Shown here: in pieces, positions 17,481-33,751 of the stretch
How the letters are laid out: the number at the start of each line of letters is the position of its first letter
Position numbering within the stretch: position 1 is the first letter of the stretch
Assembly: GCA_000002445.1 (NCBI GenBank)
Contig: CP000068.1
Span: 672,001 to 736,000, forward strand
Reading direction: 5' to 3'
DNA from: Trypanosoma brucei
Taxonomy: Eukaryota
Length of the DNA: 64,000 nucleotides
Notes under the pieces: generated by a model
What the model saw: only the letters and a program-made list of their open reading frames with translations
Told to the model about the DNA's origin: nothing
Database searches by the model: none
Made by a program: the position numbers and the translations under genes

Positions 17481-18856
17481 TTTTGTCCCGCAACGATCGT
17501 GGAGCGGTAAAAAGCAAGGCGCTGCCATGGCGCCGCTGCGGGAGTGCGCCGTTGCGCGCTGTCTGGCACGCTCGTGGTGAATAGCGCGCGCTCATGAGCG
17601 CGTGAGGCCTTCTATTGTTCCGGCACCCCGCTACGCTGATACCAGCTGAATTCAGGGTTAGGAGCACCCATCAGCATGTCAAATGCTGCGGCGAGGTGGT
17701 GGGGAAAGTCTCTCCAGTTGGGGCTCCATCAGTTACAAGCTACCCGCTTACAGCGGCTGACTCCGTATAGAAAATTATCACTGCGTTTCCGCGCCGCGTT
17801 GGAAGCGTTGCCAACAGACATGGAGACGTCAAGTCTCTCCCAGATTCAGACAAAAAATCGAAAAAAAGAACAGCCAGGCTAAAAAAAAAAAAATTGGCAC
17901 ATTAATAGATAGGAGATAGGAGATAAATGCTGTCAACAATACACTCCATGTTAAACATTTCCTTCTCCACCCAGAAGAGGTGGGTAAAATACCAACGTTG
18001 CCCCTAACGACCCTATATGGGGGTGGCACCAACCGTGCAGTTGAAACCAATATCAACTTGATGGGAAGAGCCTTCCCTGAAATCGATATCTTAAAGAGTA
18101 AAAGGCTGTCGAGGCCGTACACGAGACTTACCAACGCAGCTAGTGTTGTCTCGTTTTATTCCGTGTCTCCCATCAATGCGAGATGTTCACATATGACATT
18201 CGATGCCACACTATTGACCGGTGGACGGTGCGAGATTGCATCACCACAGCCCTTCCCTCAATAAGTACACCAAGTCCAATACAAACAAGATAATGAAGCA
18301 CACCTTGCCTTTCCACATCACGGCCGATAGCGTTTGGTACCCAGTTTTCTTTCGATATAGCGAATTAAAGAAAGTAGCACCATCGTTGACCAGCACAAAA
18401 CGATCAGGAAGTTACAAAGACAGAATCAACTAAACAGCCCAAAAACGACAAAGTTCCTTATTTTCACATACAGCACAACCCAAAGAAAAGCACCCCTACT
18501 ACGTTTCCAGGAGCAGCAGAGGTTTGTTGCCGCCTACCGCTGTCAAAAGCATTCCATGTTATAATTTGTTTGCCGCGCTTGGTCTCGTGATGCTGAGTGA
18601 TTGTGCCTGTGTTTGTGGTTTCACCCCCTCTTGTCACGCCTTCCGCGGTTGGTGTGATTCCATTTGTGTTTGTTTCATGTGTTTTGTTTCCCTCACTACA
18701 TTGTGTGGTGAGGTTTGCTACTCTTATGATGAGTGCGCCTTGTGCCGCGTGCGTGTGTAGTGCTCATTTACCACTTGCTGCTTTCCCTTAACCTATTTCT
18801 GGATGAAAGAGACTTTACTCTTGTTTTTACCCACGTTCAAGCCGACACGGATAACA

Positions 18857-19207
18857 ATGGCCACCTGCCCTAAACACCTGTTCGGGAAGTACCATCTAAA
18901 GAGTTTTAATGGCAAAAGCGCCTTGGAGGGCGAACTGGCCGGTGTGACACTGGAGCTTGGTGAAGAAGACGGTCGTGTCACAGTACGCGCGAAGGCGGGA
19001 AATGCGATGAGTGGTGTGTTGAAGTATGAAGGTGGGATGCTCACCGGTCCCTTGATGTCTACAATGATGATGCCTCCCCCTGCTGTCTTGAAAGTAGAAC
19101 GAACCCTCGTGTCCGGTTTTTCCAGCGGTATGCATGCGCTCCGTGAAGGCTCTTCTCTTACGCTTTCGCATAAGACAGACACGATGGTGTTTGAGGCCGT
19201 GGAGTAA
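18857..19207 (+). CDS. Array gene C, copy 0 (diverged edge copy): 117-aa soluble protein with FABP/calycin-like N-terminal motif
   Basis: MATCPKHLFGKYHLKSFNGKSALEGELAGVTLELGEEDGRVTVRAKAGNAMSGVLKYEGGMLTG... A polypyrimidine tract and AG lie immediately upstream of this ATG. The listed 134-aa ORF starts 54 nt further upstream, inside the acceptor region. Confidence 0.6.
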   Translation: MATCPKHLFGKYHLKSFNGKSALEGELAGVTLELGEEDGRVTVRAKAGNAMSGVLKYEGGMLTGPLMSTMMMPPPAVLKVERTLVSGFSSGMHALREGSSLTLSHKTDTMVFEAVE

Positions 19208-20333
19208 ACTTGTTTCTCGACATGCAGTTACCCTTTTATTTTCTACTTGTGTTGCCACTACACTTTCGTGTTTGTGGTCGGTGTTAGCGAACACTACCTT
19301 TGTTTACCACTTAGTGTTATGTTATTTATTTTTGAAATCGGGTTATTATTTTTATTTTTTTTTTCCAGGGTGTAGATATTTGAACCCTAATAAACGTCAA
19401 CGTTTTGTTAATTTATACGGGGGTACGTGTTTTTTTATTTGTTATCGAGGTATAGGCCTTCTGTCATGGTGACTACTGGACATTTTCGCTTCCTCTTTGC
19501 TGGATGCTCCCTGAATACTCAACGTAATAGTATGAAGAAAAGTGAGATGGTAGGCGGGGAATAAGTGTATGTAAGGAGTATATATTGTACGGACATCGGT
19601 AGTGGTGATGATGTTGAGATTCTCTCTCTTAAAGGTTATATCTTTGTATCAACTGATTCGGTACATAAGATCAGATTTTAAATACTATCTTCTATTTATT
19701 ATTTATTATGGAGTGTGATAATTAAAATGTAAGGGCAAATTATCTAACTGCTTATGATCAGTTGATTAGGTAGCGAGTAGTTTAGATAGTATCTTATATT
19801 TAGGAGGTGAGGTGTCCATCTGTAGTAATGGAAGAAATTGTTTGTAAGGATCGACGGCAGTGCAGATAAAACAAATATCGAAGTATATATATATGTATAG
19901 AAGTTTGGCTCAGCGACAGAGATACAATATTCTGCAAAAATAAGATATAAATATTTCATCATTACCCTACCATGCACAGATTATCGATGTGTATCCAACA
20001 AGGTGGGCGCGTGCGACTCCTTCAAGCATTCCATGTTATAATTTGTTTGCCGCGCTTGGTCTCGTGATGCTGAGCGATTGTGCCTGTGTTTGTGGTTTCA
20101 CCCCCTCTTGTCACGCCTTCCGCGGTTGGTGTGATTCCATTTGTGTTTGTTTCATGTGTTTTGTTTCCCTCACTACATTGTGTGGTGAGGTTTGCTACTC
20201 TTATGATGAGTGCGCCTTGTGCCGCGTGCGTGTGTAGTGCTCATTTACCACTTGCTGCTTTCCCTTAACCTATTTCTGGATGAAAGAGACTTTACTCTTG
20301 TTTTTACCCACGTTCAAGCCGACACGGATAACA

Positions 20334-20684
20334 ATGGCCACCTGCCCTAAACACCTGTTCGGGAAGTACCATCTAAAGAGTTTTAATGGCAAAAGCGCCT
20401 TGGAGGGCGAACTGGCCGGTGTGACACTGGAGCTTGGTGAAGAAGACGGTCGTGTCACAGTACGCGCGAAGGCGGGAAATGCGATGAATGGTGTGTTGAA
20501 GTATGAAGGTGGGATGCTCACCGGTCCCTTGATATCCACTATTATGCTCTCGCCCCCTGCTTTGATGGAGGTGGAGAGTGCTTTCAGTTCTGGATTTTCC
20601 AGCGGTATGCATGCGCTCCGTGAAGGCTCTTCTCTTACGCTTTCGCATAAGACAGACACGATGGTGTTTGAGGCCGTGGAGTAA
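20334..20684 (+). CDS. Array gene C, copy 1: 117-aa FABP/calycin-like protein
   Basis: Same as 18857..19207 except for the variable patch GPLISTIMLSPPALMEVESAFSSG. Confidence 0.6.
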   Translation: MATCPKHLFGKYHLKSFNGKSALEGELAGVTLELGEEDGRVTVRAKAGNAMNGVLKYEGGMLTGPLISTIMLSPPALMEVESAFSSGFSSGMHALREGSSLTLSHKTDTMVFEAVE

Positions 20685-20984
20685 AGGTGACGGGCATACG
20701 TTAGTGTGTGTTTTGTTTATACGGTGATGTAAAAAATGACTTAAATTTTCATCTGTTTTTCGGTTATATTGTAGGTGCATATTCAACTTTCTCAATACCT
20801 AATGGCGGTACTATTAGTATTATTTTTTTTAAATACTTTCCTTGTTCACGAATATGTGATATCTACTGATTCGTATGAGCACTTTTGTTTTTTTATGCGT
20901 CTTCCTGTCTTCGCTAGCGTTTTGTTGTTGATGTATTTCTTGATTTGCTTTTCGTTTCTTTCTTTATGCTCTATACCTTTTTTT

Positions 20985-21042
20985 GCCTTTCCCTTGTATC
21001 CGCATATTCTCGTCCTCTGGTCTCTACTCCGCCATATTTATT
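20985..21042 (+). promoter_or_regulatory. Polypyrimidine tract / probable trans-splice acceptor region upstream of array gene A (recurs every 4182 bp)
   Basis: cctttttttgcctttcccttgtatccgcatattctcgtcctctggtctctactccgcc, then AG dinucleotides before the ATG at 21111. Confidence 0.4.
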
Positions 21043-21110
21043 CATGTAGTGCATGTAGTACTGGTTTGCATCCCGTGGAAACCTCTGCTTTTGTGTAGCA
21101 CCCGCGATTT

Positions 21111-22541
21111 ATGGCATCAGACAATGAGTCCACTGTCGAGGTGAGGGAGGCTCGTGACACCGAGGAGTACGATGCGCAGGCTGCTGCTCGTGGGCTGTGT
21201 GACAAGGCATGTGACATAAAGAGCCTTCTACATGGGCACGTTGAGTCGACGCGTGCCCTCGAAAGGGTTGTTGGGGAATTTTGCACTCGCGACATCGCTG
21301 AAGAGGATGCCTTCCGGAAAATCTCTCTCGACGTTATGCATGCCGAAATGCGGGCGCTACGGGACCTTCACTACGTTGCATTTTCCCAGCGGTGGGCAGA
21401 GGTAGAAAAGGGCTCCGCTGCAGAGGAGGTCACCAGCCTACCTTCAGCGGATAGGAGTGTTGGAAGTTGCGTGTCCCACCTTCTGACCTCGCTTTGTGAG
21501 GGAAAGCCTGATGCAACTTTTAGCCTTTCAGAGTATTTTGGTGTCGCTGACGTGCTTATGGAATGGCGCTCGTTAACTCCAGCATCACAGGAACAGTTGG
21601 ATATTCTTCTTCTGTCAATAACCAGGAGCGTGGAGGACATTTCATCATGTGTCCTGCTGCTGAATGGGGTTTTATATACACCATCTGATTCATTTGATTG
21701 TTGTGAACTCACTCGACGGGAGCTCACCGCGATAATTGGAAGTGGGGGACCCGCTTCCGCGGAAGAGGCACTTGTTGGATGGCTTAATTTTATTGTGAGA
21801 CGCTCGTTACTCAACCAGACCCTTCTCCAGAGGCTGATGAGTTCGACCATCGAGTTTCGGAGAAGTGATCTTTGCCTACAGGGCGACGGCGCAGACGTGC
21901 TGGTTGTAGTCGACCACAGGCGGTTGTTGAACTCCGCTGTCTTTCGTGGGTTTTTCTTTTCTGGGGAGTTGCGTGGTGTAGAGGCTATTGGGGCGCAGGT
22001 GAACTTGATGTCAGTATTATTTGCAGGCAACGGCAGCGGAGATCAGCTTGACATAGAGAAGTGTATCGCCGACATTTTCCGCGCTTTATGGGAGCAGCAG
22101 GAACTGCTTTCATGTAAGTGGAAGAACGTTACTGTGACCCTCGCTGTTCAAGCCAGGAAGGACGTCGGAGCCGGCGCTCAAACCAAGTTGATGGACTTCG
22201 TTGTGCTCGATCTTCGCCCCCTGTCGCCGAACATTCCTTTTCAGTGGCACTTTACATGGGGCGAGGTCTGTGCACTAGGCCAGCTCAGTACGAATGACGG
22301 AGATAGAGCACGACCCCTGGACATTCCTGTTTTCAAGACGACTCGTGTAGCTGTAGCCTCTCTGGGGCCTTATGATAAACTTTCACGCATAATGTTCCCT
22401 TCGATTAACGAGTATTTACGTCTTACGCGGAAAGAGCCACCATCTGTAGCCCCAGTCGCCTACGCTGCCGTCGCGGCGGCGCTTGTCGTCGGGGGATTTA
22501 TTGTTGGAAGCTGCATACTCGGTTCCCGGCGAAGACGATGA
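21111..22541 (+). CDS. Array gene A, copy 1: 476-aa tail-anchored membrane protein, no recognisable domain
   Basis: No N-terminal signal peptide (MASDNESTVEVREARD...). A single C-terminal hydrophobic helix (VAPVAYAAVAAALVVGGFIVGSCILG) is followed only by SRRRR-stop. A strong polypyrimidine tract lies upstream (20985..21042). Confidence 0.75.
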   Translation: MASDNESTVEVREARDTEEYDAQAAARGLCDKACDIKSLLHGHVESTRALERVVGEFCTRDIAEEDAFRKISLDVMHAEMRALRDLHYVAFSQRWAEVEKGSAAEEVTSLPSADRSVGSCVSHLLTSLCEGKPDATFSLSEYFGVADVLMEWRSLTPASQEQLDILLLSITRSVEDISSCVLLLNGVLYTPSDSFDCCELTRRELTAIIGSGGPASAEEALVGWLNFIVRRSLLNQTLLQRLMSSTIEFRRSDLCLQGDGADVLVVVDHRRLLNSAVFRGFFFSGELRGVEAIGAQVNLMSVLFAGNGSGDQLDIEKCIADIFRALWEQQELLSCKWKNVTVTLAVQARKDVGAGAQTKLMDFVVLDLRPLSPNIPFQWHFTWGEVCALGQLSTNDGDRARPLDIPVFKTTRVAVASLGPYDKLSRIMFPSINEYLRLTRKEPPSVAPVAYAAVAAALVVGGFIVGSCILGSRRRR

Positions 22542-22789
22542 GCAGTATCCGCCTCTGCTTTTTTCTGTTCATCTTGTTTTATTGACTTTAGAGCCATATT
22601 TAGGCTCCGCTATGCGTCCTTGTTGGTTAGAGGTTTAGTATTGTTGTACCTGACTCTGTGACTGATGGTGGGTGCCGCACCGTATCTGCGGCATGGGGTG
22701 CTTGCGTGAGTGAGGATCCACACTTATTTGACCGCTGTTTGCTATGAAATGTTTCCCTCCTTTCCTACTTGTAGCCAAGTTAATATTGC

Positions 22790-24130
22790 ATGATGGATAT
22801 TACTGCGTTGTGCGGAAACTATCGGTTGTGTGAGATTGACGGAAAGACGTGCTCCGAGGAAGTGTTTATTGCTCTAGAGGCGTCTGGTGGTGGTGTTGAG
22901 GTTGTTGCCATGGTGGGCAACACCCTGTGCGGGCGCGCTTGTGTGAATGGGGACAGGATTAGTGCGAACCTTACTAGCACTATGAGGCAGGTGGAAGAAG
23001 AGATGATGAGGATTGAAAGCCTGCTGACATGCGGGTTCAAGGCCGGGTTTACCTGTGAGCAGAGTGACATCATACTGACGCTGACTGGAGAGCAGAGTGT
23101 CTTCACATTGGAGCGTGATGTATTATGTGATATAAAGTTTGGTGAGTATACCCTCTGTGAGTTCAATGGGGAACCCGTGGCTTCGGACGAGATGGTGCTC
23201 ACCCTGCTCCCCGCTGTGGTAGATGGTGCCCTTGTGATTGCACAGTTCAAAAACTCTCTCCGCGGGGAGCTGGAGCTTCGCAATGGTCGTCTCCGCGGCG
23301 TTATTGCGTCGACGATGTGCGAGGTGGATGGTTCTTTGAAGTGCGCGGAGGAAGCGTTTTTGTCAGCTACCAGGGGTGATGGCATAAAAGTGTGCTCTGA
23401 CGACCACCGGCTTGTGCTTAAGGACGACCACAATGCGTTCGTTTATGTGCTGCGTCCAGCAATTCCAGAGAACCTTGTGAGCGAGTACTTACTGAAGAGC
23501 TTCAATGGCGAGTCTGTAGAGGCTGAGAGGCGTGTGATGTTCCGCTTTTCCCAATCAGCTGACGGTGTCGGTACGGATGTTGTGGCGAGTGTTGCCAATA
23601 CGATCAGGGGGAAGGTAAGAGTGGATGACGGAAAGTTAAAATCGAAGGTGATGTCATCACGAAGGAAAGGGAATGAGTCGGAGATGCGATTTGAGAATGC
23701 TCTGAAGGAAGGGTTCAAGGCTGGGTTTTCGTGGTCTCTGGACGACACGGTGCTGACTCTTGAGTGCGACGGGAACCGCCTCATCTTCGTGAAAGTTGCC
23801 GCTGTGCCGTGCGAAAATGGTAGGCCGGGGTATATTGGTGATAAGGTTTCAAGATGCTTTAAGGCCCACGACGATGCTCGAGTGTACCGTATCATCAACA
23901 CTGTGGAATCGAAGTGGGCATTTTACAATGACACGACCGAATACAATTTTAATGTGTCAGTGACTTTTGGGCGGAAATCAAAGGTACGCGGTCTGGCCAA
24001 CACGTCAATTGAGACAAATGAGGAAGGCTTGACGGTTGCCAGCGTGTCAGTCGCCCCTGGTGCGACGGAGATGTTCGTTGCTGGGGATGTAAACGGGTAC
24101 AAGTGCTCCTATGACGCAGTGCACCAGTAG
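22790..24130 (+). CDS. Array gene B, copy 1: 446-aa protein built of ~4 tandem FABP/calycin-like domains (~110 aa each)
   Basis: The internal repeats start CGNYRLCEIDGK, FGEYTLCEFNGE, SEYLLKSFNGE, plus a diverged fourth. The first and third repeats end with the motifs RIESLLTCGFKAGFTCEQSDIILTLTGEQ and RFENALKEGFKAGFSWSLDDTVLTLECDG. The start motifs are the same G-x-Y-x-L-x-S/E-F/I-N-G signature as gene C. Confidence 0.75.
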   Translation: MMDITALCGNYRLCEIDGKTCSEEVFIALEASGGGVEVVAMVGNTLCGRACVNGDRISANLTSTMRQVEEEMMRIESLLTCGFKAGFTCEQSDIILTLTGEQSVFTLERDVLCDIKFGEYTLCEFNGEPVASDEMVLTLLPAVVDGALVIAQFKNSLRGELELRNGRLRGVIASTMCEVDGSLKCAEEAFLSATRGDGIKVCSDDHRLVLKDDHNAFVYVLRPAIPENLVSEYLLKSFNGESVEAERRVMFRFSQSADGVGTDVVASVANTIRGKVRVDDGKLKSKVMSSRRKGNESEMRFENALKEGFKAGFSWSLDDTVLTLECDGNRLIFVKVAAVPCENGRPGYIGDKVSRCFKAHDDARVYRIINTVESKWAFYNDTTEYNFNVSVTFGRKSKVRGLANTSIETNEEGLTVASVSVAPGATEMFVAGDVNGYKCSYDAVHQ

Positions 24131-24515
24131 CCGACATTGCGTTGAGTGTTGATCCGGATGTAAGATACACATATGTATGCGGAGGTGGGCGCGTGCGACT
24201 CCTTCAAGCATTCCATGTTATAATTTGTTTGCCGCGCTTGGTCTCGTGATGCTGAGCGATTGTGCCTGTGTTTGTGGTTTCACCCCCTCTTGTCACGCCT
24301 TCCGCGGTTGGTGTGATTCCATTTGTGTTTGTTTCATGTGTTTTGTTTCCCTCACTACATTGTGTGGTGAGGTTTGCTACTCTTATGATGAGTGCGCCTT
24401 GTGCCGCGTGCGTGTGTAGTGCTCATTTACCACTTGCTGCTTTCCCTTAACCTATTTCTGGATGAAAGAGACTTTACTCTTGTTTTTACCCACGTTCAAG
24501 CCGACACGGATAACA

Positions 24516-24866
24516 ATGGCCACCTGCCCTAAACACCTGTTCGGGAAGTACCATCTAGAGAGTTTTAATGGCAAAAGCGCCTTGGAGGGCGAACTGGCCG
24601 GTGTGACACTGGAGCTTGGTGAAGAAGACGGTCGTGTCACAGTACGCGCGAAGGCGGGAAATGCGATGAATGGTGTGTTGAAGTATGAAGGTGGGATGCT
24701 CACCGGCGTCTTGATATCCACTATTATGCTCTCGCCCCCTGCTTTGATGGAGGTGGAGAGTGCTTTCAGTTCTGGATTTTCCAGCGGTATGCATGCGCTC
24801 CGTGAAGGCTCTTCTCTTACGCTTTCGCATAAGACAGACACGATGGTGTTTGAGGCCGTGGAGTAA
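24516..24866 (+). CDS. Array gene C, copy 2: 117-aa FABP/calycin-like protein
   Basis: Identical to copy 3. Differs from copy 1 at K->E (HLESFNG) and P->V (TGVLIST). Confidence 0.6.
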   Translation: MATCPKHLFGKYHLESFNGKSALEGELAGVTLELGEEDGRVTVRAKAGNAMNGVLKYEGGMLTGVLISTIMLSPPALMEVESAFSSGFSSGMHALREGSSLTLSHKTDTMVFEAVE

Positions 24867-25292
24867 AGGTGACGGGCATACGTTAGTGTGTGTTTTGTTT
24901 ATACGGTGATGTAAAAAATGACTTAAATTTTCATCTGTTTTTCGGTAATATTGTAGGTGCATATTCAACTCTTTGAATTTCTAATGGCGGTACTATTAGT
25001 ATTATTTTTTTTAAATACTTTCCTTGTTCACGAATATGTGATATCTACTGATTCGTATGAGCACTTTTGTTTTTTTATGCGTCTTCCTGTCTTCGCTAGC
25101 GTTTTGTTGTTGATGTATTTCTTGATTTGCTTTTCGTTTCTTTCTTTATGCTCTATACCTTTTTTTGCCTTTCCCTTGTATCCGCATATTCTCGTCCTCT
25201 GGTCTCTACTCCGCCATATTTATTCATGTAGTGCATGTAGTACTGGTTTGCATCCCGTGGAAACCTCTGCTTTTGTGTAGCACCCGCGATTT

Positions 25293-26723
25293 ATGGCATC
25301 AGACAATGAGTCCACTGTCGAGGTGAGGGAGGCTCGTGACACCGAGGAGTACGATGCGCAGGCTGCTGCTCGTGGGCTGTGTGACAAGGCATGTGACATA
25401 AAGAGCCTTCTACATGGGCACGTTGAGTCGACGCGTGCCCTCGAAAGGGTTGTTGGGGAATTTTGCACTCGCGACATCGCTGAAGAGGATGCCTTCCGGA
25501 AAATCTCTCTCGACGTTATGCATGCCGAAATGCGGGCGCTACGGGACCTTCACTACGTTGCATTTTCCCAGCGGTGGGCAGAGGTAGAAAAGGGCTCCGC
25601 TGCAGAGGAGGTCACCAGCCTACCTTCAGCGGATAGGAGTGTTGGAAGTTGCGTGTCCCACCTTCTGGCCTCGCTTTGTGAGGGAAAGCCTGATGCAACT
25701 TTTAGCCTTTCAGAGTATTTTGGTGTCGCTGACGTGCTTATGGAATGGCGCTCGTTAACTCCAGCATCACAGGAACAGTTGGATATTCTTCTTCTGTCAA
25801 TAACCAGGAGCGTGGAGGACATTTCATCATGTGTCCTGCTGCTGAATGGGGTTTTATATACACCATCTGATTCATTTGATTGTTGTGAACTCACTCGACG
25901 GGAGCTCACCGCGATAATTGGAAGTGGGGGACCCGCTTCCGCGGAAGAGGCACTTGTTGGATGGCTTAATTTTATTGTGAGACGCTCGTTACTCAACCAG
26001 ACCCTTCTCCAGAGGCTGATGAGTTCGACCATCGAGTTTCGGAGAAGTGATCTTTGCCTACAGGGCGACGGCGCAGACGTGCTGGTTGTAGTCGACCACA
26101 GGCGGTTGTTGAACTCCGCTGTCTTTCGTGGGTTTTTCTTTTCTGGGGAGTTGCGTGGTGTAGAGGCTATTGGGGCGCAGGTGAACTTGATGTCAGTATT
26201 ATTTGCAGGCAACGGCAGCGGAGATCAGCTTGACATAGAGAAGTGTATCGCCGACATTTTCCGCGCTTTATGGGAGCAGCAGGAACTGCTTTCATGTAAG
26301 TGGAAGAACGTTACTGTGACCCTCGCTGTTCAAGCCAGGAAGGACGTCGGAGCCGGCGCTCAAACCAAGTTGATGGACTTCGTTGTGCTCGATCTTCGCC
26401 CCCTGTCGCCGAACATTCCTTTTCAGTGGCACTTTACATGGGGCGAGGTCTGTGCACTAGGCCAGCTCAGTACGAATGACGGAGATAGAGCACGACCCCT
26501 GGACATTCCTGTTTTCAAGACGACTCGTGTAGCTGTAGCCTCTCTGGGGCCTTATGATAAACTTTCACGCATAATGTTCCCTTCGATTAACGAGTATTTA
26601 CGTCTTACGCGGAAAGAGCCACCATCTGTAGCCCCAGTCGCCTACGCTGCCGTCGCGGCGGCGCTTGTCGTCGGGGGATTTATTGTTGGAAGCTGCATAC
26701 TCGGTTCCCGGCGAAGACGATGA
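25293..26723 (+). CDS. Array gene A, copy 2 (T->A at HLLASLCEG relative to copy 1)
   Basis: Exact 4182-bp periodic copy. Confidence 0.75.
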   Translation: MASDNESTVEVREARDTEEYDAQAAARGLCDKACDIKSLLHGHVESTRALERVVGEFCTRDIAEEDAFRKISLDVMHAEMRALRDLHYVAFSQRWAEVEKGSAAEEVTSLPSADRSVGSCVSHLLASLCEGKPDATFSLSEYFGVADVLMEWRSLTPASQEQLDILLLSITRSVEDISSCVLLLNGVLYTPSDSFDCCELTRRELTAIIGSGGPASAEEALVGWLNFIVRRSLLNQTLLQRLMSSTIEFRRSDLCLQGDGADVLVVVDHRRLLNSAVFRGFFFSGELRGVEAIGAQVNLMSVLFAGNGSGDQLDIEKCIADIFRALWEQQELLSCKWKNVTVTLAVQARKDVGAGAQTKLMDFVVLDLRPLSPNIPFQWHFTWGEVCALGQLSTNDGDRARPLDIPVFKTTRVAVASLGPYDKLSRIMFPSINEYLRLTRKEPPSVAPVAYAAVAAALVVGGFIVGSCILGSRRRR

Positions 26724-26971
26724 GCAGTATCCGCCTCTGCTTTTTTCTGTTCATCTTGTTTTATTGACTTTAGAGCCATATTTAGGCTCCGCTATGCGTC
26801 CTTGTTGGTTAGAGGTTTAGTATTGTTGTACCTGACTCTGTGACTGATGGTGGGTGCCGCACCGTATCTGCGGCATGGGGTGCTTGCGTGAGTGAGGATC
26901 CACACTTATTTGACCGCTGTTTGCTATGAAATGTTTCCCTCCTTTCCTACTTGTAGCCAAGTTAATATTGC

Positions 26972-28312
26972 ATGATGGATATTACTGCGTTGTGCGGAAA
27001 CTATCGGTTGTGTGAGATTGACGGAAAGACGTGCTCCGAGGAAGTGTTTATTGCTCTAGAGGCGTCTGGTGGTGGTGTTGAGGTTGTTGCCATGGTGGGC
27101 AACACCCTGTGCGGGCGCGCTTGTGTGAATGGGGACAGGATTAGTGCGAACCTTACTAGCACTATGAGGCAGGTGGAAGAAGAGATGATGAGGATTGAAA
27201 GCCTGCTGACATGCGGGTTCAAGGCCGGGTTTACCTGTGAGCAGAGTGACATCATACTGACGCTGACTGGAGAGCAGAGTGTCTTCACATTGGAGCGTGA
27301 TGTATTATGTGATATAAAGTTTGGTGAGTATACCCTCTGTGAGTTCAATGGGGAACCCGTGGCTTCGGACGAGATGGTGCTCACCCTGCTCCCCGCTGTG
27401 GTAGATGGTGCCCTTGTGATTGCACAGTTCAAAAACTCTCTCCGCGGGGAGCTGGAGCTTCGCAATGGTCGTCTCCGCGGCGTTATTGCGTCGACGATGT
27501 GCGAGGTGGATGGTTCTTTGAAGTGCGCGGAGGAAGCGTTTTTGTCAGCTACCAGGGGTGATGGCATAAAAGTGTGCTCTGACGACCACCGGCTTGTGCT
27601 TAAGGACGACCACAATGCGTTCGTTTATGTGCTGCGTCCAGCAATTCCAGAGAACCTTGTGAGCGAGTACTTACTGAAGAGCTTCAATGGCGAGTCTGTA
27701 GAGGCTGAGAGGCGTGTGATGTTCCGCTTTTCCCAATCAGCTGACGGTGTCGGTACGGATGTTGTGGCGAGTGTTGCCAATACGATCAGGGGGAAGGTAA
27801 GAGTGGATGACGGAAAGTTAAAATCGAAGGTGATGTCATCACGAAGGAAAGGGAATGAGTCGGAGATGCGATTTGAGAATGCTCTGAAGGAAGGGTTCAA
27901 GGCTGGGTTTTCGTGGTCTCTGGACGACACGGTGCTGACTCTTGAGTGCGACGGGAACCGCCTCATCTTCGTGAAAGTTGCCGCTGTGCCGTGCGAAAAT
28001 GGTAGGCCGGGGTATATTGGTGATAAGGTTTCAAGATGCTTTAAGGCCCACGACGATGCTCGAGTGTACCGTATCATCAACACTGTGGAATCGAAGTGGG
28101 CATTTTACAATGACACGACCGAATACAATTTTAATGTGTCAGTGACTTTTGGGCGGAAATCAAAGGTACGCGGTCTGGCCAACACGTCAATTGAGACAAA
28201 TGAGGAAGGCTTGACGGTTGCCAGCGTGTCAGTCGCCCCTGGTGCGACGGAGATGTTCGTTGCTGGGGATGTAAACGGGTACAAGTGCTCCTATGACGCA
28301 GTGCACCAGTAG
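26972..28312 (+). CDS. Array gene B, copy 2
   Basis: Identical protein, 4182-bp period. Confidence 0.75.
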   Translation: MMDITALCGNYRLCEIDGKTCSEEVFIALEASGGGVEVVAMVGNTLCGRACVNGDRISANLTSTMRQVEEEMMRIESLLTCGFKAGFTCEQSDIILTLTGEQSVFTLERDVLCDIKFGEYTLCEFNGEPVASDEMVLTLLPAVVDGALVIAQFKNSLRGELELRNGRLRGVIASTMCEVDGSLKCAEEAFLSATRGDGIKVCSDDHRLVLKDDHNAFVYVLRPAIPENLVSEYLLKSFNGESVEAERRVMFRFSQSADGVGTDVVASVANTIRGKVRVDDGKLKSKVMSSRRKGNESEMRFENALKEGFKAGFSWSLDDTVLTLECDGNRLIFVKVAAVPCENGRPGYIGDKVSRCFKAHDDARVYRIINTVESKWAFYNDTTEYNFNVSVTFGRKSKVRGLANTSIETNEEGLTVASVSVAPGATEMFVAGDVNGYKCSYDAVHQ

Positions 28313-28697
28313 CCGACATTGCGTTGAGTGTTGATCCGGATGTAAGATACACATATGTATGCGGAGGTGGGCGCGTGCGACTCCTTCAAGCATTCCATGT
28401 TATAATTTGTTTGCCGCGCTTGGTCTCGTGATGCTGAGCGATTGTGCCTGTGTTTGTGGTTTCACCCCCTCTTGTCACGCCTTCCGCGGTTGGTGTGATT
28501 CCATTTGTGTTTGTTTCATGTGTTTTGTTTCCCTCACTACATTGTGTGGTGAGGTTTGCTACTCTTATGATGAGTGCGCCTTGTGCCGCGTGCGTGTGTA
28601 GTGCTCATTTACCACTTGCTGCTTTCCCTTAACCTATTTCTGGATGAAAGAGACTTTACTCTTGTTTTTACCCACGTTCAAGCCGACACGGATAACA

Positions 28698-29048
28698 ATG
28701 GCCACCTGCCCTAAACACCTGTTCGGGAAGTACCATCTAGAGAGTTTTAATGGCAAAAGCGCCTTGGAGGGCGAACTGGCCGGTGTGACACTGGAGCTTG
28801 GTGAAGAAGACGGTCGTGTCACAGTACGCGCGAAGGCGGGAAATGCGATGAATGGTGTGTTGAAGTATGAAGGTGGGATGCTCACCGGCGTCTTGATATC
28901 CACTATTATGCTCTCGCCCCCTGCTTTGATGGAGGTGGAGAGTGCTTTCAGTTCTGGATTTTCCAGCGGTATGCATGCGCTCCGTGAAGGCTCTTCTCTT
29001 ACGCTTTCGCATAAGACAGACACGATGGTGTTTGAGGCCGTGGAGTAA
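28698..29048 (+). CDS. Array gene C, copy 3: 117-aa FABP/calycin-like protein
   Basis: Identical to copy 2. Confidence 0.6.
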   Translation: MATCPKHLFGKYHLESFNGKSALEGELAGVTLELGEEDGRVTVRAKAGNAMNGVLKYEGGMLTGVLISTIMLSPPALMEVESAFSSGFSSGMHALREGSSLTLSHKTDTMVFEAVE

Positions 29049-29474
29049 AGGTGACGGGCATACGTTAGTGTGTGTTTTGTTTATACGGTGATGTAAAAAA
29101 TGACTTAAATTTTCATCTGTTTTTCGGTAATATTGTAGGTGCATATTCAACTCTTTGAATTTCTAATGGCGGTACTATTAGTATTATTTTTTTTAAATAC
29201 TTTCCTTGTTCACGAATATGTGATATCTACTGATTCGTATGAGCACTTTTGTTTTTTTATGCGTCTTCCTGTCTTCGCTAGCGTTTTGTTGTTGATGTAT
29301 TTCTTGATTTGCTTTTCGTTTCTTTCTTTATGCTCTATACCTTTTTTTGCCTTTCCCTTGTATCCGCATATTCTCGTCCTCTGGTCTCTACTCCGCCATA
29401 TTTATTCATGTAGTGCATGTAGTACTGGTTTGCATCCCGTGGAAACCTCTGCTTTTGTGTAGCACCCGCGATTT

Positions 29475-30905
29475 ATGGCATCAGACAATGAGTCCACTGT
29501 CGAGGTGAGGGAGGCTCGTGACACCGAGGAGTACGATGCGCAGGCTGCTGCTCGTGGGCTGTGTGACAAGGCATGTGACATAAAGAGCCTTCTACATGGG
29601 CACGTTGAGTCGACGCGTGCCCTCGAAAGGGTTGTTGGGGAATTTTGCACTCGCGACATCGCTGAAGAGGATGCCTTCCGGAAAATCTCTCTCGACGTTA
29701 TGCATGCCGAAATGCGGGCGCTACGGGACCTTCACTACGTTGCATTTTCCCAGCGGTGGGCAGAGGTAGAAAAGGGCTCCGCTGCAGAGGAGGTCACCAG
29801 CCTACCTTCAGCGGATAGGAGTGTTGGAAGTTGCGTGTCCCACCTTCTGGCCTCGCTTTGTGAGGGAAAGCCTGATGCAACTTTTAGCCTTTCAGAGTAT
29901 TTTGGTGTCGCTGACGTGCTTATGGAATGGCGCTCGTTAACTCCAGCATCACAGGAACAGTTGGATATTCTTCTTCTGTCAATAACCAGGAGCGTGGAGG
30001 ACATTTCATCATGTGTCCTGCTGCTGAATGGGGTTTTATATACACCATCTGATTCATTTGATTGTTGTGAACTCACTCGACGGGAGCTCACCGCGATAAT
30101 TGGAAGTGGGGGACCCGCTTCCGCGGAAGAGGCACTTGTTGGATGGCTTAATTTTATTGTGAGACGCTCGTTACTCAACCAGACCCTTCTCCAGAGGCTG
30201 ATGAGTTCGACCATCGAGTTTCGGAGAAGTGATCTTTGCCTACAGGGCGACGGCGCAGACGTGCTGGTTGTAGTCGACCACAGGCGGTTGTTGAACTCCG
30301 CTGTCTTTCGTGGGTTTTTCTTTTCTGGGGAGTTGCGTGGTGTAGAGGCTATTGGGGCGCAGGTGAACTTGATGTCAGTATTATTTGCAGGCAACGGCAG
30401 CGGAGATCAGCTTGACATAGAGAAGTGTATCGCCGACATTTTCCGCGCTTTATGGGAGCAGCAGGAACTGCTTTCATGTAAGTGGAAGAACGTTACTGTG
30501 ACCCTCGCTGTTCAAGCCAGGAAGGACGTCGGAGCCGGCGCTCAAACCAAGTTGATGGACTTCGTTGTGCTCGATCTTCGCCCCCTGTCGCCGAACATTC
30601 CTTTTCAGTGGCACTTTACATGGGGCGAGGTCTGTGCACTAGGCCAGCTCAGTACGAATGACGGAGATAGAGCACGACCCCTGGACATTCCTGTTTTCAA
30701 GACGACTCGTGTAGCTGTAGCCTCTCTGGGGCCTTATGATAAACTTTCACGCATAATGTTCCCTTCGATTAACGAGTATTTACGTCTTACGCGGAAAGAG
30801 CCACCATCTGTAGCCCCAGTCGCCTACGCTGCCGTCGCGGCGGCGCTTGTCGTCGGGGGATTTATTGTTGGAAGCTGCATACTCGGTTCCCGGCGAAGAC
30901 GATGA
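29475..30905 (+). CDS. Array gene A, copy 3
   Basis: Identical to copy 2. Confidence 0.75.
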   Translation: MASDNESTVEVREARDTEEYDAQAAARGLCDKACDIKSLLHGHVESTRALERVVGEFCTRDIAEEDAFRKISLDVMHAEMRALRDLHYVAFSQRWAEVEKGSAAEEVTSLPSADRSVGSCVSHLLASLCEGKPDATFSLSEYFGVADVLMEWRSLTPASQEQLDILLLSITRSVEDISSCVLLLNGVLYTPSDSFDCCELTRRELTAIIGSGGPASAEEALVGWLNFIVRRSLLNQTLLQRLMSSTIEFRRSDLCLQGDGADVLVVVDHRRLLNSAVFRGFFFSGELRGVEAIGAQVNLMSVLFAGNGSGDQLDIEKCIADIFRALWEQQELLSCKWKNVTVTLAVQARKDVGAGAQTKLMDFVVLDLRPLSPNIPFQWHFTWGEVCALGQLSTNDGDRARPLDIPVFKTTRVAVASLGPYDKLSRIMFPSINEYLRLTRKEPPSVAPVAYAAVAAALVVGGFIVGSCILGSRRRR

Positions 30906-31153
30906 GCAGTATCCGCCTCTGCTTTTTTCTGTTCATCTTGTTTTATTGACTTTAGAGCCATATTTAGGCTCCGCTATGCGTCCTTGTTGGTTAGAGGTTT
31001 AGTATTGTTGTACCTGACTCTGTGACTGATGGTGGGTGCCGCACCGTATCTGCGGCATGGGGTGCTTGCGTGAGTGAGGATCCACACTTATTTGACCGCT
31101 GTTTGCTATGAAATGTTTCCCTCCTTTCCTACTTGTAGCCAAGTTAATATTGC

Positions 31154-32494
31154 ATGATGGATATTACTGCGTTGTGCGGAAACTATCGGTTGTGTGAGAT
31201 TGACGGAAAGACGTGCTCCGAGGAAGTGTTTATTGCTCTAGAGGCGTCTGGTGGTGGTGTTGAGGTTGTTGCCATGGTGGGCAACACCCTGTGCGGGCGC
31301 GCTTGTGTGAATGGGGACAGGATTAGTGCGAACCTTACTAGCACTATGAGGCAGGTGGAAGAAGAGATGATGAGGATTGAAAGCCTGCTGACATGCGGGT
31401 TCAAGGCCGGGTTTACCTGTGAGCAGAGTGACATCATACTGACGCTGACTGGAGAGCAGAGTGTCTTCACATTGGAGCGTGATGTATTATGTGATATAAA
31501 GTTTGGTGAGTATACCCTCTGTGAGTTCAATGGGGAACCCGTGGCTTCGGACGAGATGGTGCTCACCCTGCTCCCCGCTGTGGTAGATGGTGCCCTTGTG
31601 ATTGCACAGTTCAAAAACTCTCTCCGCGGGGAGCTGGAGCTTCGCAATGGTCGTCTCCGCGGCGTTATTGCGTCGACGATGTGCGAGGTGGATGGTTCTT
31701 TGAAGTGCGCGGAGGAAGCGTTTTTGTCAGCTACCAGGGGTGATGGCATAAAAGTGTGCTCTGACGACCACCGGCTTGTGCTTAAGGACGACCACAATGC
31801 GTTCGTTTATGTGCTGCGTCCAGCAATTCCAGAGAACCTTGTGAGCGAGTACTTACTGAAGAGCTTCAATGGCGAGTCTGTAGAGGCTGAGAGGCGTGTG
31901 ATGTTCCGCTTTTCCCAATCAGCTGACGGTGTCGGTACGGATGTTGTGGCGAGTGTTGCCAATACGATCAGGGGGAAGGTAAGAGTGGATGACGGAAAGT
32001 TAAAATCGAAGGTGATGTCATCACGAAGGAAAGGGAATGAGTCGGAGATGCGATTTGAGAATGCTCTGAAGGAAGGGTTCAAGGCTGGGTTTTCGTGGTC
32101 TCTGGACGACACGGTGCTGACTCTTGAGTGCGACGGGAACCGCCTCATCTTCGTGAAAGTTGCCGCTGTGCCGTGCGAAAATGGTAGGCCGGGGTATATT
32201 GGTGATAAGGTTTCAAGATGCTTTAAGGCCCACGACGATGCTCGAGTGTACCGTATCATCAACACTGTGGAATCGAAGTGGGCATTTTACAATGACACGA
32301 CCGAATACAATTTTAATGTGTCAGTGACTTTTGGGCGGAAATCAAAGGTACGCGGTCTGGCCAACACGTCAATTGAGACAAATGAGGAAGGCTTGACGGT
32401 TGCCAGCGTGTCAGTCGCCCCTGGTGCGACGGAGATGTTCGTTGCTGGGGATGTAAACGGGTACAAGTGCTCCTATGACGCAGTGCACCAGTAG
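31154..32494 (+). CDS. Array gene B, copy 3
   Basis: Identical protein, 4182-bp period. Confidence 0.75.
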   Translation: MMDITALCGNYRLCEIDGKTCSEEVFIALEASGGGVEVVAMVGNTLCGRACVNGDRISANLTSTMRQVEEEMMRIESLLTCGFKAGFTCEQSDIILTLTGEQSVFTLERDVLCDIKFGEYTLCEFNGEPVASDEMVLTLLPAVVDGALVIAQFKNSLRGELELRNGRLRGVIASTMCEVDGSLKCAEEAFLSATRGDGIKVCSDDHRLVLKDDHNAFVYVLRPAIPENLVSEYLLKSFNGESVEAERRVMFRFSQSADGVGTDVVASVANTIRGKVRVDDGKLKSKVMSSRRKGNESEMRFENALKEGFKAGFSWSLDDTVLTLECDGNRLIFVKVAAVPCENGRPGYIGDKVSRCFKAHDDARVYRIINTVESKWAFYNDTTEYNFNVSVTFGRKSKVRGLANTSIETNEEGLTVASVSVAPGATEMFVAGDVNGYKCSYDAVHQ

Positions 32495-32879
32495 CCGACA
32501 TTGCGTTGAGTGTTGATCCGGATGTAAGATACACATATGTATGCGGAGGTGGGCGCGTGCGACTCCTTCAAGCATTCCATGTTATAATTTGTTTGCCGCG
32601 CTTGGTCTCGTGATGCTGAGCGATTGTGCCTGTGTTTGTGGTTTCACCCCCTCTTGTCACGCCTTCCGCGGTTGGTGTGATTCCATTTGTGTTTGTTTCA
32701 TGTGTTTTGTTTCCCTCACTACATTGTGTGGTGAGGTTTGCTACTCTTATGATGAGTGCGCCTTGTGCCGCGTGCGTGTGTAGTGCTCATTTACCACTTG
32801 CTGCTTTCCCTTAACCTATTTCTGGATGAAAGAGACTTTACTCTTGTTTTTACCCACGTTCAAGCCGACACGGATAACA

Positions 32880-33230
32880 ATGGCCACCTGCCCTAAACAC
32901 CTGTTCGGGAAGTACCATCTAAAGAGTTTTAATGGCAAAAGCGCCTTGGAGGGCGAACTGGCCGGTGTGACACTGGAGCTTGGTGAAGAAGACGGTCGTG
33001 TCACAGTACGCGCGAAGGCGGGAAATGCGATGAATGGTGTGTTGAAGTATGAAGGTGGGATGCTCACCGGTCCCTTGATGTCCACAAGAATGATGCCGCC
33101 CCCTGCTTTGATGGAGGTGGAGAGTGCTTTCAGTTCTGGATTTTCCAGCGGTATGCATGCGCTCCGTGAAGGCTCTTCTCTTACGCTTTCGCATAAGACA
33201 GACACGATGGTGTTTGAGGCCGTGGAGTAA
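32880..33230 (+). CDS. Array gene C, copy 4 (edge copy, mosaic variable patch): 117-aa FABP/calycin-like protein
   Basis: GPLMSTRMMPPPALMEVESAFSSG. The left part resembles copy 0 and the right part the internal copies. It is followed by the same tail sequence as copy 0. Confidence 0.6.
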   Translation: MATCPKHLFGKYHLKSFNGKSALEGELAGVTLELGEEDGRVTVRAKAGNAMNGVLKYEGGMLTGPLMSTRMMPPPALMEVESAFSSGFSSGMHALREGSSLTLSHKTDTMVFEAVE

Positions 33231-33751
33231 ACTTGTTTCTCGACATGCAGTTACCCTTTTATTTTCTACTTGTGTTGCCACTACACTTTCGTGTTTGTGG
33301 TCGGTGTTAGCGAACACTACCTTTGTTTACCACTTAGTGTTATGTTATTTATTTTTGAAATCGGGTTATTATTTTTATTTTTTTTTCCAGGGTGTAGATA
33401 TTTGAACCCTAATAAACGTAAACGTTTTGTTAATTTATACGGGGGTACGTGTTTTTTTATTTGTTATCGAGGTATAGGCCTTCTGTCATGGTGACTACTG
33501 GACATTTTCGCTTCCTCTTTGCTGGATGCTCCCTGAATACTCAACGTAATAGTATGAAGAAAAGTGAGATGGTAGGCGGGGAATAAGTATGAGCGAAAAC
33601 CATTAGTTATTGTGGTTATATATATATATATTTATTGTTTTTGTCTGTGTCTACCTTTTTTTTCCACAAAGAAATAATATATATTTTTTCGCCTCTTGTT
33701 TTTGGTAATTTGTAAGTTGCTACTTTATTATATATTTGGGAAGTAAATATT

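What the first reader, a model, noticed from the sequence alone, without database searches (positions are those of the whole stretch)
18857..33230. Mosaic variable patch in the five gene-C copies suggests gene-conversion tracts
Residues ~80-103 differ between copies in a patchwork. C0 is GPLMSTMMMPPPAVLKVERTLVSG. C4 is GPLMSTRMMPPPALMEVESAFSSG, with a left half like C0 and a right half like the internal copies. C1 is GPLISTIMLSPPALMEVESAFSSG. C2 and C3 are GVLISTIMLSPPALMEVESAFSSG. The rest of the protein is invariant. The edge copies, which sit next to unique tail sequence, are the most diverged. This is the expected pattern when conversion homogenises the interior of an array. The patch may also be a ligand- or partner-specificity loop under diversifying selection.
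Basis: seen in the sequence. Interest (0 to 1): 0.5.

Follow-up and report, generated by a model that had tools for sequence, protein, structure and literature searches.

The report
Conversion-resistant island in trypanosome META1 genes
Five near-identical copies of a small Trypanosoma brucei gene (META1-like) are kept alike by copy-correction, except for a 70-base island that has stayed different, in the same three forms, across subspecies; this is a clean example of a known kind of array evolution, not a new mechanism.

Summary
The window is T. brucei TREU927 chromosome 5. Gene C is the META-domain family Tb927.5.2160/2170/2200/2230/2260.

- **Clustering:** 29 of 31 variable CDS sites lie in nt 246-315 of 405 (0 of 200,000 permutations match this).
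- **Not an assembly error:** the same three island types occupy the first, internal and last positions in T. b. gambiense and T. b. equiperdum.
- **Concerted evolution outside the island:** strain-specific changes are shared by the paralogues on both sides of it. Inside, every fixed difference is paralogue-specific (Fisher p about 2e-6).
- **Mosaics:** C4 is a significant mosaic (p = 5e-4). C1 of strain 927 is probably one too.
- **Not diversifying selection:** dN/dS is about 0.2. In C0's right half (33 nt) all 8 synonymous sites differ, and it is more diverged from every Trypanosoma META1 examined than those species are from each other.
- **Not just a loop:** in an AlphaFold model the island is a strand, a loop and the start of the only helix of the HslJ-like fold. 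It includes the counterpart of Leishmania cavity residue L80.

Best reading: gene conversion homogenises the array around an old island that resists it. Selection for distinct isoforms is the likelier cause; mismatch-driven heteroduplex rejection is the alternative. It is a new example of a known kind, of moderate-to-low interest.

The parts
18803..19207 (+). C0 = Tb927.5.2160 / XP_844890, META-domain gene, island type alpha. The likely real start is the ATG at 18857, giving 116 aa.
   Evidence: ORF; exact protein match to T. brucei TREU927; Pfam META E=1.7e-15, scored on the C1 copy; 116-aa annotation (PMC7952579); the N-terminal extension is not conserved in T. congolense or T. vivax.
19048..19117 (+). 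Island in C0 (CDS nt 246-315). The right half, 19085-19117, encodes AVLKVERTLVS and is the deeply diverged segment.
   Evidence: Variable-site table; pS = 1.0 in the right half; 14-19 of 33 nt identical to every other Trypanosoma META1 examined.
20280..20684 (+). C1 = XP_844891, island type beta with P83; island at 20525-20594.
   Evidence: It differs from C2/C3 at nt 97 and 246-248, where it matches C0 and C4.
24462..24866 (+). C2, island type beta (V83, E33); island at 24707-24776.
28644..29048 (+). C3, identical to C2; island at 28889-28958.
   Evidence: units 2 and 3 are 100% identical over 4182 nt.
32826..33230 (+). C4 = XP_844900, island type gamma (left half C0-like, right half identical to the internal copies); island at 33071-33140.
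   Evidence: Among the three types, the gamma left half is equal closest (with C0's) to T. vivax and the gamma/beta right half is closest to T. vivax and T. congolense.
20001..32546 (+). Three tandem 4182-bp units, each holding gene C, a 476-aa predicted transmembrane protein and a 446-aa META2-like protein (three matched META stretches plus DUF1935). A partial fourth unit follows at 32547-33231.
18547..18802 (+). Upstream block of 256 nt shared by all five copies, apart from one C0-private base at -205. It carries 927-specific bases at -187 and -57 in every copy.
19208..19566 (+). 'A' 3' flank of C0, near-identical to the 3' flank of C4.
   Evidence: 927-specific variants (nt 442, a 5-nt indel at 513-517, nt 617, nt 657) are shared by both A flanks.
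33231..33588 (+). 'A' 3' flank of C4.

Best explanation
The five genes are the T. brucei META1-like family, a single META/HslJ-like domain of probably 116 aa. They sit in and around a tandem array that evolves in concert by gene conversion and unequal crossing-over. Conversion keeps about 950 nt of each module identical between paralogues within a genome: the upstream block, the first 245 nt and last 90 nt of the CDS, and for C0 and C4 the shared 3' flank.

A 70-nt island is not overwritten. It exists in three forms: alpha in C0, beta in the internal copies, gamma in C4. These forms are positionally orthologous across T. brucei subspecies. The island has strata of different age. The left half (nt 246-273) differs by 10-28% between types (10-21% among C0, C1 and C4). 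The right half of C0 (nt 283-315) differs at 17 of 33 nt and is older than, or at least more diverged than, any between-species difference seen in the genus.

The island encodes the strand, loop and helix start that form one wall of the 'cracked barrel' cavity. That includes the counterpart of Leishmania L80 (L in alpha, F in beta and gamma) and a charge swap on the helix (K and R in alpha, E and S in the others).

Inferred: the island persists because the isoforms are functionally distinct and conversion products that erase it are selected against. Dense mismatches probably also block heteroduplex extension through it. C0 and C4 additionally carry a different 3' flank from the internal copies, so isoform and regulation may be coupled.
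For: **Shown**
- Identity and family: exact matches to TREU927 chromosome 5 proteins; Pfam META above threshold; AlphaFold model with pLDDT 89 whose best PDB match is HslJ 2KTS (TM 0.75), then MxiM.
- Clustering of the differences.
- The three island types are conserved by position in 927, gambiense and equiperdum. The gamma type is also present in three Logan assemblies.
- Concerted evolution on both sides of the island. Positions -187, -57 and -26 upstream are strain-specific in all copies. Position 442, the 5-nt indel at 513-517, and positions 617 and 657 are strain-specific in both A flanks. Within the homologous module all 20 paralogue-specific sites lie in the island and every strain-specific site lies outside it. 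Fisher p = 2.4e-6 on a table that also counts a few sites past the end of the flank homology.
- Ongoing exchange: nt 209 (S70N) is distributed crosswise between strains. 927 C1 carries the C0/C4 state at nt 246-248, whereas the gambiense and equiperdum internal copies carry V83. The first equiperdum copy joins an alpha island to the internal-type 3' flank, with the 1477-bp C0-C1 interval absent.
- T. vivax, with the same array layout, has at least 7 copies with identical CDS and no island.
- Age: pS is 1.0 (8 of 8) in C0's right half against 0 of 77 elsewhere, and dN/dS is about 0.2. C0's right half is 14-19 of 33 nt identical to every species, whereas C1-4 match T. congolense at 25 of 33 and T. 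vivax at 21 of 33.
- Structure mapping and the cavity mutagenesis in Leishmania (PMC3270026).
Against: - Selection for distinct isoforms is not demonstrated. No isoform-specific functional or expression data were found.
- In Leishmania the L80F mutant behaved like wild type in the secretion assay, so the L/F difference may be neutral.
- The age argument rests on 33 nt.
- Only three subspecies genomes were compared. Two are older or collapsed assemblies (gambiense shows 1 full unit, equiperdum 2), so part of the 'shared strain-specific variant' signal could be consensus bleed between repeats.
- Units 2 and 3 of 927 are 100% identical, which could be recent duplication or an assembly artefact.
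- An unannotated donor elsewhere in the genome was not excluded.
Confidence: 0.7

Rival explanations
1. Edge-effect model: conversion homogenises the interior copies, and the edge copies simply drift because they have a partner on one side only and abut unique sequence.
For: The internal copies C1-C3 are the most alike and U2 equals U3. The two most distinct island types are in the first and last copies.
Against: The edge copies are identical to the internal copies over the upstream 256 nt (apart from one C0-private base), CDS nt 1-245 (apart from nt 97 and 209) and CDS nt 316-405. They are near-identical to each other in the 3' flank. Strain-specific changes have spread to them. Divergence does not rise toward the flanks; it is an internal island. 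Synonymous saturation in 33 nt cannot arise by drift while the adjacent 90 nt stay identical.
Confidence: 0.1
2. Diversifying (positive) selection on a specificity loop in young duplicates.
For: The island overlaps the cavity-forming strand and helix. The replacements include charge changes (K/E, R/S). In the left half, C1 against C4 has 5 non-synonymous and 2 synonymous differences.
Against: dN/dS is 0.17-0.21 for C0 against the others and 0.6-0.7 (not above 1) for the remaining pairs. Synonymous sites in the island are saturated while the flanks have none. Each type is almost unchanged between subspecies: per type there are 1-2 single-base changes, plus the 927 C1 P/V83 mosaic in the beta type. 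That indicates conservation, not ongoing diversification.
Confidence: 0.08
3. Recent import: the C0 module is a young duplicate of the C4 module, and its right-half island was pasted in by ectopic conversion from a diverged donor elsewhere, such as a pseudogene or subtelomeric copy.
For: The C0 and C4 modules are near-identical outside the island over about 1 kb. The alpha right half is an outlier to all species, as an imported segment could be.
Against: - No donor is in the window. There are no 12-mer matches beyond chance, and the META2 domains are unlike it.
- No other META1-like T. brucei protein turned up in three database searches.
- The alpha island is already fixed in three subspecies.
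Confidence: 0.12
4. Sequencing or assembly error in repeats.
For: Repeat arrays are error-prone. U2 and U3 are suspiciously identical. The second equiperdum copy has a 2-nt deletion (aligned CDS columns 390-391) that looks like an assembly error.
Against: The same three island sequences occur in three independently sequenced subspecies and in short-read assemblies. All copies keep the reading frame and the family-invariant residues.
Confidence: 0.01

Closest known systems
Leishmania META1 (and the META1/META2 cluster)
   Same: - Single META domain of about 112-116 aa.
- Adjacent to a META2-like gene (three matched META stretches plus DUF1935).
- The same neighbourhood (LRR protein, acyltransferase) is seen in T. 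vivax and T. grayi.
- The literature calls the T. brucei genes syntenic homologues of meta-1 (PMC7952579, PMC2753553).
   Different: - In T. brucei the gene is multicopy in a 4.2-kb three-gene repeat and exists as three isoforms.
- Its mRNA rises in procyclic forms, and one copy's tagged product localised to the flagellum tip (PMC2753553, PMC9981465). That contrasts with metacyclic up-regulation and flagellar-pocket localisation in Leishmania.
- No function has been tested in T. brucei.
E. coli HslJ (PDB 2KTS) and Shigella MxiM pilotin fold
   Same: Cracked-barrel fold with one helix. Foldseek gives TM 0.75 to 2KTS and 0.56 to 1Y9L. The island aligns to HslJ's 'TRMMC' strand and the following helix.
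   Different: Sequence identity is about 22%. The conserved Cys of TRMMC is absent (Pro or Ser in T. brucei). No lipoprotein signal was examined. The ligand is unknown.
Concerted evolution with gene conversion in T. brucei tandem arrays (Jackson 2007, BMC Evol Biol 7:54, PMC1855330)
   Same: Tandem duplicates homogenised within a genome, conversion tracts that span CDS and UTR boundaries, atypical copies at array ends, and UTR types that do not follow CDS relationships.
   Different: That paper's main text does not mention this array (supplements not checked). Here the notable feature is a very short internal island, 70 nt, of which 33 nt show beyond-genus divergence. It is flanked on both sides by actively homogenised sequence.
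Selection-protected sites within converting paralogues, for example primate red/green opsin genes and RHD/RHCE (from general knowledge, not tested here)
   Same: Conversion homogenises most of the paralogues, while a few functionally critical segments stay distinct.
   Different: Different organisms and proteins. In those cases the functional role of the protected sites is established experimentally; here it is not.

Membership tests
META domain family (Pfam PF03724; META1/HslJ) | Sequence match to the META profile above the curated threshold | tested here: met
   57.4 bits against a cut-off of 24, E=1.7e-15, covering residues 27-130.
META domain family (Pfam PF03724; META1/HslJ) | HslJ-like cracked beta-barrel with a single helix | tested here: met
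   AlphaFold model with pLDDT 89.4 and pTM 0.82, showing 9 strands and 1 helix. The top PDB match is 2KTS with TM 0.75, E=3e-5.
META domain family (Pfam PF03724; META1/HslJ) | Family-conserved residues in the strand-helix motif (L-x-S/T-T-x-M ... V-E ... G-F) | tested here: met
   L66, T69, M71, P75, V80, E81, G87 and F88 (116-aa numbering) are kept in all three island types.
Trypanosomatid META1 orthologue (syntenic) | Adjacent to META2 (three matched META stretches plus DUF1935) and upstream of the LRR and acyltransferase genes | tested here: met
   Window; T. vivax, gambiense and equiperdum loci; T. grayi.
Trypanosomatid META1 orthologue (syntenic) | Role in secretion or virulence, as reported for Leishmania META1 | not testable with these tools
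   Only literature on Leishmania is available (PMC3270026).
Concerted evolution by gene conversion / unequal crossing-over | Paralogues within a genome are more alike than positional orthologues between genomes | tested here: met
   Met outside the island: about 8 strain-specific events are shared by the paralogues and there are 0 paralogue-specific sites in about 950 nt. The reverse holds inside the island.
Concerted evolution by gene conversion / unequal crossing-over | Statistically supported mosaic copies with breakpoints | tested here: met
   C4 has a breakpoint between nt 273 and 283, Fisher p = 5e-4. 927 C1 has a breakpoint between nt 248 and 255. The first equiperdum copy joins an alpha island to the B flank.
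Concerted evolution by gene conversion / unequal crossing-over | Direct observation of conversion events (pedigree or experimental) | not testable with these tools
   Needs experimental lines or population long reads.
Diversifying selection hotspot | dN/dS above 1 in the patch | tested here: not met
   0.17-0.21 for C0 against the others; 0.6-0.7 for C1/C2 against C4 and C1 against C2, with 3-10 differences each.

The most novel reading that the evidence does not exclude
The alpha helix segment of C0 (33 nt) is the last remnant of a META1 paralogue lineage older than the radiation of the salivarian trypanosomes. It has been kept for that long by selection as a functional cassette, while everything around it was repeatedly overwritten. 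On this reading T. brucei deliberately maintains three META1 isoforms with different cavity or helix surfaces. These are coupled to two different 3' flanks, for stage- or site-specific ligand or partner binding at the flagellum.
Probability: 0.25. Interest if true: 0.5.

Novelty: new member of a known kind. Interest (0 to 1): 0.33.

Why it matters
- It gives a compact, well-controlled natural example of how short a segment can be and still resist homogenisation in a trypanosome tandem array. Conversion is demonstrated within about 130-270 nt on either side of it.
- It flags that the 'identical' META1 copies of T. brucei, usually treated as one gene in transcriptomic, proteomic and tagging studies, encode three proteins. 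They differ exactly in the structural element that Leishmania work ties to function.
- It also suggests a simple assay locus for the role of mismatch repair in limiting conversion tracts.
- It does not reveal a new mechanism.

Tried and rejected
- **Donor for the C0 island inside the window.** Self-BLAST and 12-mer scans found only chance hits at 42949 and 12063. The three META domains of the 446-aa gene have unrelated helices.
- **Donor or paralogue in protein databases.** The word-index search found only the T. brucei cluster and T. theileri. The exhaustive HMMER search and the profile search found no additional T. brucei META1-like protein.
- **T. congolense META1.** It was not in the protein databases. 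It was recovered by finding T. congolense META2 and reading the contig, where it is an unannotated ORF.
- **Logan contig L009 (P0022).** It turned out to be a distant kinetoplastid with 30% META2 identity and was uninformative.
- **PMC7007551.** Its 'Meta1' refers to cell clusters, not the gene.
- **The C0-C1 interval 19567-20000.** It has no similarity to anything else in the window.
- **A multi-nucleotide mutation burst as the origin of the C0 right half.** Rejected because the family-invariant V, E and G codons, and the Ser kept in all T. brucei types, changed only synonymously.


Full report
**What the region is**

The window matches Trypanosoma brucei brucei TREU927 chromosome 5. All the ORF products queried are exact matches to TREU927 proteins on a 1,608,198-bp contig. 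'Gene C' is a 134-aa ORF present five times:

| Copy | Window coordinates |
|---|---|
| C0 | 18803-19207 |
| C1 | 20280-20684 |
| C2 | 24462-24866 |
| C3 | 28644-29048 |
| C4 | 32826-33230 |

Its product matches the Pfam META domain at E = 1.7e-15. The literature knows these genes as Tb927.5.2160, 2170, 2200, 2230 and 2260, a 116-aa single-META-domain family at the start of a polycistronic unit (PMC7952579). The 18-residue N-terminal extension of the 134-aa ORF is not conserved in T. vivax or T. congolense.

**Layout of the array**

- From 20001 there are three 4182-bp units. Each holds C, a 476-aa predicted membrane protein and a 446-aa META2-like protein (three matched META stretches plus DUF1935).
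- A partial fourth unit of 685 nt follows and ends with C4.
- Units 2 and 3 are 100% identical. Unit 1 differs from them at 11 sites.
- C0 lies 1477 bp upstream of C1, in a roughly 1020-bp module (18547-19566) that is a copy of the C4 module (32570-33588), including about 360 nt of 3' flank ('A' flank).
- C1-C3 have a different 3' flank ('B' flank).

**Checking the observation**

At nucleotide level, 29 of 31 variable CDS sites fall in nt 246-315. None of 200,000 random placements reached that clustering. Outside the patch only K33E (C2 and C3) and S70N (C0) vary. The site patterns are:

| CDS nt | Pattern |
|---|---|
| 246-248 | distinguish C2 and C3 |
| 255-273 | separate C0 and C4 from C1-3, with private states in C0 (258, 273) and C4 (263-264) |
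| 283-315 | 17 substitutions, all private to C0 |

C4 is a significant mosaic with a breakpoint between nt 273 and 283 (Fisher p = 5e-4).

**Not an artefact**

T. b. gambiense DAL972 (locus L002) and T. b. equiperdum (L003 and L001) carry the same three island types. I call them alpha (first copy), beta (internal copies) and gamma (last copy, next to the LRR gene). Each type carries one or two single-base changes among strains, and the beta type also shows the P/V83 state at nt 246-248 described below. Three short-read Logan assemblies also carry the gamma type downstream of META2.

**Concerted evolution around the island**

- Strain-specific bases at -187, -57 and -26 upstream are shared by every copy within a genome.
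- In the A flank, nt 442, a 5-nt indel at 513-517, nt 617 and nt 657 are strain-specific and shared by both the C0 and C4 modules.
- I classified the variable columns of the C0 and C4 modules of 927 and gambiense. Within the homologous module (up to about nt 765) all 20 paralogue-specific columns lie in the island. All strain-specific columns lie outside it. Fisher p = 2.4e-6, on a table that also counted a few columns just past the end of the A-flank homology.
- nt 209 is distributed crosswise between strains.
- C1 of 927 carries the C0/C4 state at nt 246-248, whereas the internal copies of gambiense and equiperdum carry V83.
- The first equiperdum copy joins an alpha island to the B flank, and the C0-C1 interval is missing. 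This is what an unequal crossover in the 90-nt identical 3' end of the CDS would produce, unless it is an assembly collapse.
- T. vivax has the same array layout with at least 7 copies. Their full-length CDSs are 100% identical at the nucleotide level, and the first copy is 5'-truncated. Complete homogenisation is therefore the default outcome in a relative.

**Age and selection**

- Nei-Gojobori counts give dN/dS of 0.17-0.21 for C0 against the others in the island.
- The rest of the CDS has 0 synonymous differences in 77 synonymous sites.
- The right half of the island has 8 of 8 synonymous sites changed, with pN = 0.36.
- I recovered an unannotated T. congolense META1 (L010:1317-1667) and the coding DNA of T. 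vivax, T. theileri, T. conorhini, T. grayi and T. rangeli.
- In the 33-nt right half, the beta/gamma sequence is 25 of 33 identical to T. congolense and 21 of 33 to T. vivax. The alpha sequence is only 14-19 of 33 identical to every sequence, including beta/gamma at 16 of 33.
- At protein level, beta/gamma, T. congolense and T. vivax share the derived E of 'EVE-x-A' where non-salivarian species have D. Beta/gamma and T. vivax also share the derived 'VES'. Alpha shares neither of these derived states, keeping the non-salivarian 'VER-x-L' but with K at the D/E position.
- In the left half, differences between the types (4-11 of 39 nt) are smaller than or comparable to the T. brucei to T. congolense distance (9-13 of 39).

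The island is therefore old divergence under purifying selection, not a site of recent adaptive change. Its strata differ in age.

No donor for the alpha segment was found in the window or in any protein database searched.

**What the island encodes**

An AlphaFold model (pLDDT 89.4) places island residues 64-87 (116-aa numbering) as follows:

- strand 66-68
- loop 69-74
- the first 13 residues of the only helix, 75-90

The best structural matches are HslJ 2KTS (TM 0.75) and MxiM 1Y9L. In the alignment with HslJ, the island corresponds to the 'TRMMC' strand and the following helix.

All family-conserved positions are kept in all three types. The differences include K79/R82 in alpha against E79/S82 in beta and gamma, and L84 against F84.

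Position 84 (102 in 134-aa numbering) aligns with Leishmania META1 L80. Puri et al. placed L80 inside the putative hydrophobic cavity and mutated it to F. That mutant behaved like wild type in their secretion assay (PMC3270026).

A role of the island in ligand or partner specificity is therefore plausible but unproven.

**Context from the literature**

- Tb927.5.2160 mRNA rises during differentiation to procyclic forms (PMC2753553).
- Tb927.5.2260 is among the most abundant procyclic transcripts (PMC2771046).
- Tagged Tb927.5.2230 localised to the flagellum tip (PMC9981465).
- Array-internal genes fall on ZC3H45 knock-down.
- The two A-flank copies appear in the table of mRNAs differentially co-precipitated with the EIF4E3 and EIF4E4 complexes.

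These results hint, but do not show, that A-flank and B-flank copies are regulated differently.

**Comparison with what is known**

Gene conversion, concerted evolution and atypical end copies in T. brucei tandem arrays were described in general by Jackson 2007 (PMC1855330). I found no paper describing this island. It is thus a new, unusually clean example of a known phenomenon.

**Verdict**

- The conversion and mosaic interpretation is supported.
- The edge-effect explanation is insufficient.
- Diversifying selection is not supported.
- The open question is why the island persists: selection for isoforms, or mismatch-driven rejection of heteroduplex.

Interest is moderate-to-low.

Noticed in passing
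window 20765-20798 (3' flank of C1, unit 1): A private cluster of 6 substitutions within 34 nt distinguishes the 3' flank of 927 C1 from the B flanks of C2, C3 and all gambiense and equiperdum copies. It looks like a second small patch, in untranslated sequence.
   Followed up: partly
window 13721-15394 (-): A 557-aa ORF with a reverse-transcriptase domain (RVT_1, E=5.6e-46) lies about 3.4 kb upstream of C0. Retroelement ORFs (RVT_1, Exo_endo_phos_2, RNase_H) sit at the equivalent place in gambiense and equiperdum. The GC skew changes sign at about 12-16 kb, consistent with a strand-switch region and the start of a transcription unit.
   Followed up: partly
L003 10001-10833 (T. b. equiperdum GCA_003543875.1): The first META1 copy has the alpha island but is followed directly by the 476-aa gene (B flank). 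The 1477-bp C0-C1 interval seen in 927 and gambiense is absent. This is either an unequal crossover in the last 90 nt of the CDS or an assembly collapse. The second copy has a 2-nt deletion (aligned CDS columns 390-391) that changes the C-terminus (122-aa product).
   Followed up: partly
L010 1317-1667 (T. congolense IL3000, CAEQ01001785.1): An intact but unannotated META1 ORF (116 aa, 66% identical to C4) lies between two META2 copies. No 476-aa gene lies between them, so the repeat unit appears to differ from that of T. brucei and T. vivax.
   Followed up: no
window 24183-32546: Repeat units 2 and 3 are 100% identical over 4182 nt. Copy number differs between assemblies: 3 full units in 927, 1 in gambiense, 2 in equiperdum and at least 5 in T. 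vivax. It may be a very recent duplication or assembly modelling of the repeat.
   Followed up: no
window 18803-18856 and equivalents: The 18-codon N-terminal extension (MKETLLLFLPTFKPTRIT) of the 134-aa GenBank models is not conserved in T. congolense, which has an in-frame stop about 22 codons upstream of its first ATG, or in T. vivax. The 116-aa model is more likely correct.
   Followed up: partly
window 19208-19566 and 33231-33588: A 5-nt insertion (TGTTA, flank position 513-517) is present in both A flanks of strain 927 and absent from both in gambiense and from the equiperdum copy. The indel has evidently been copied between two loci 14 kb apart.
   Followed up: yes
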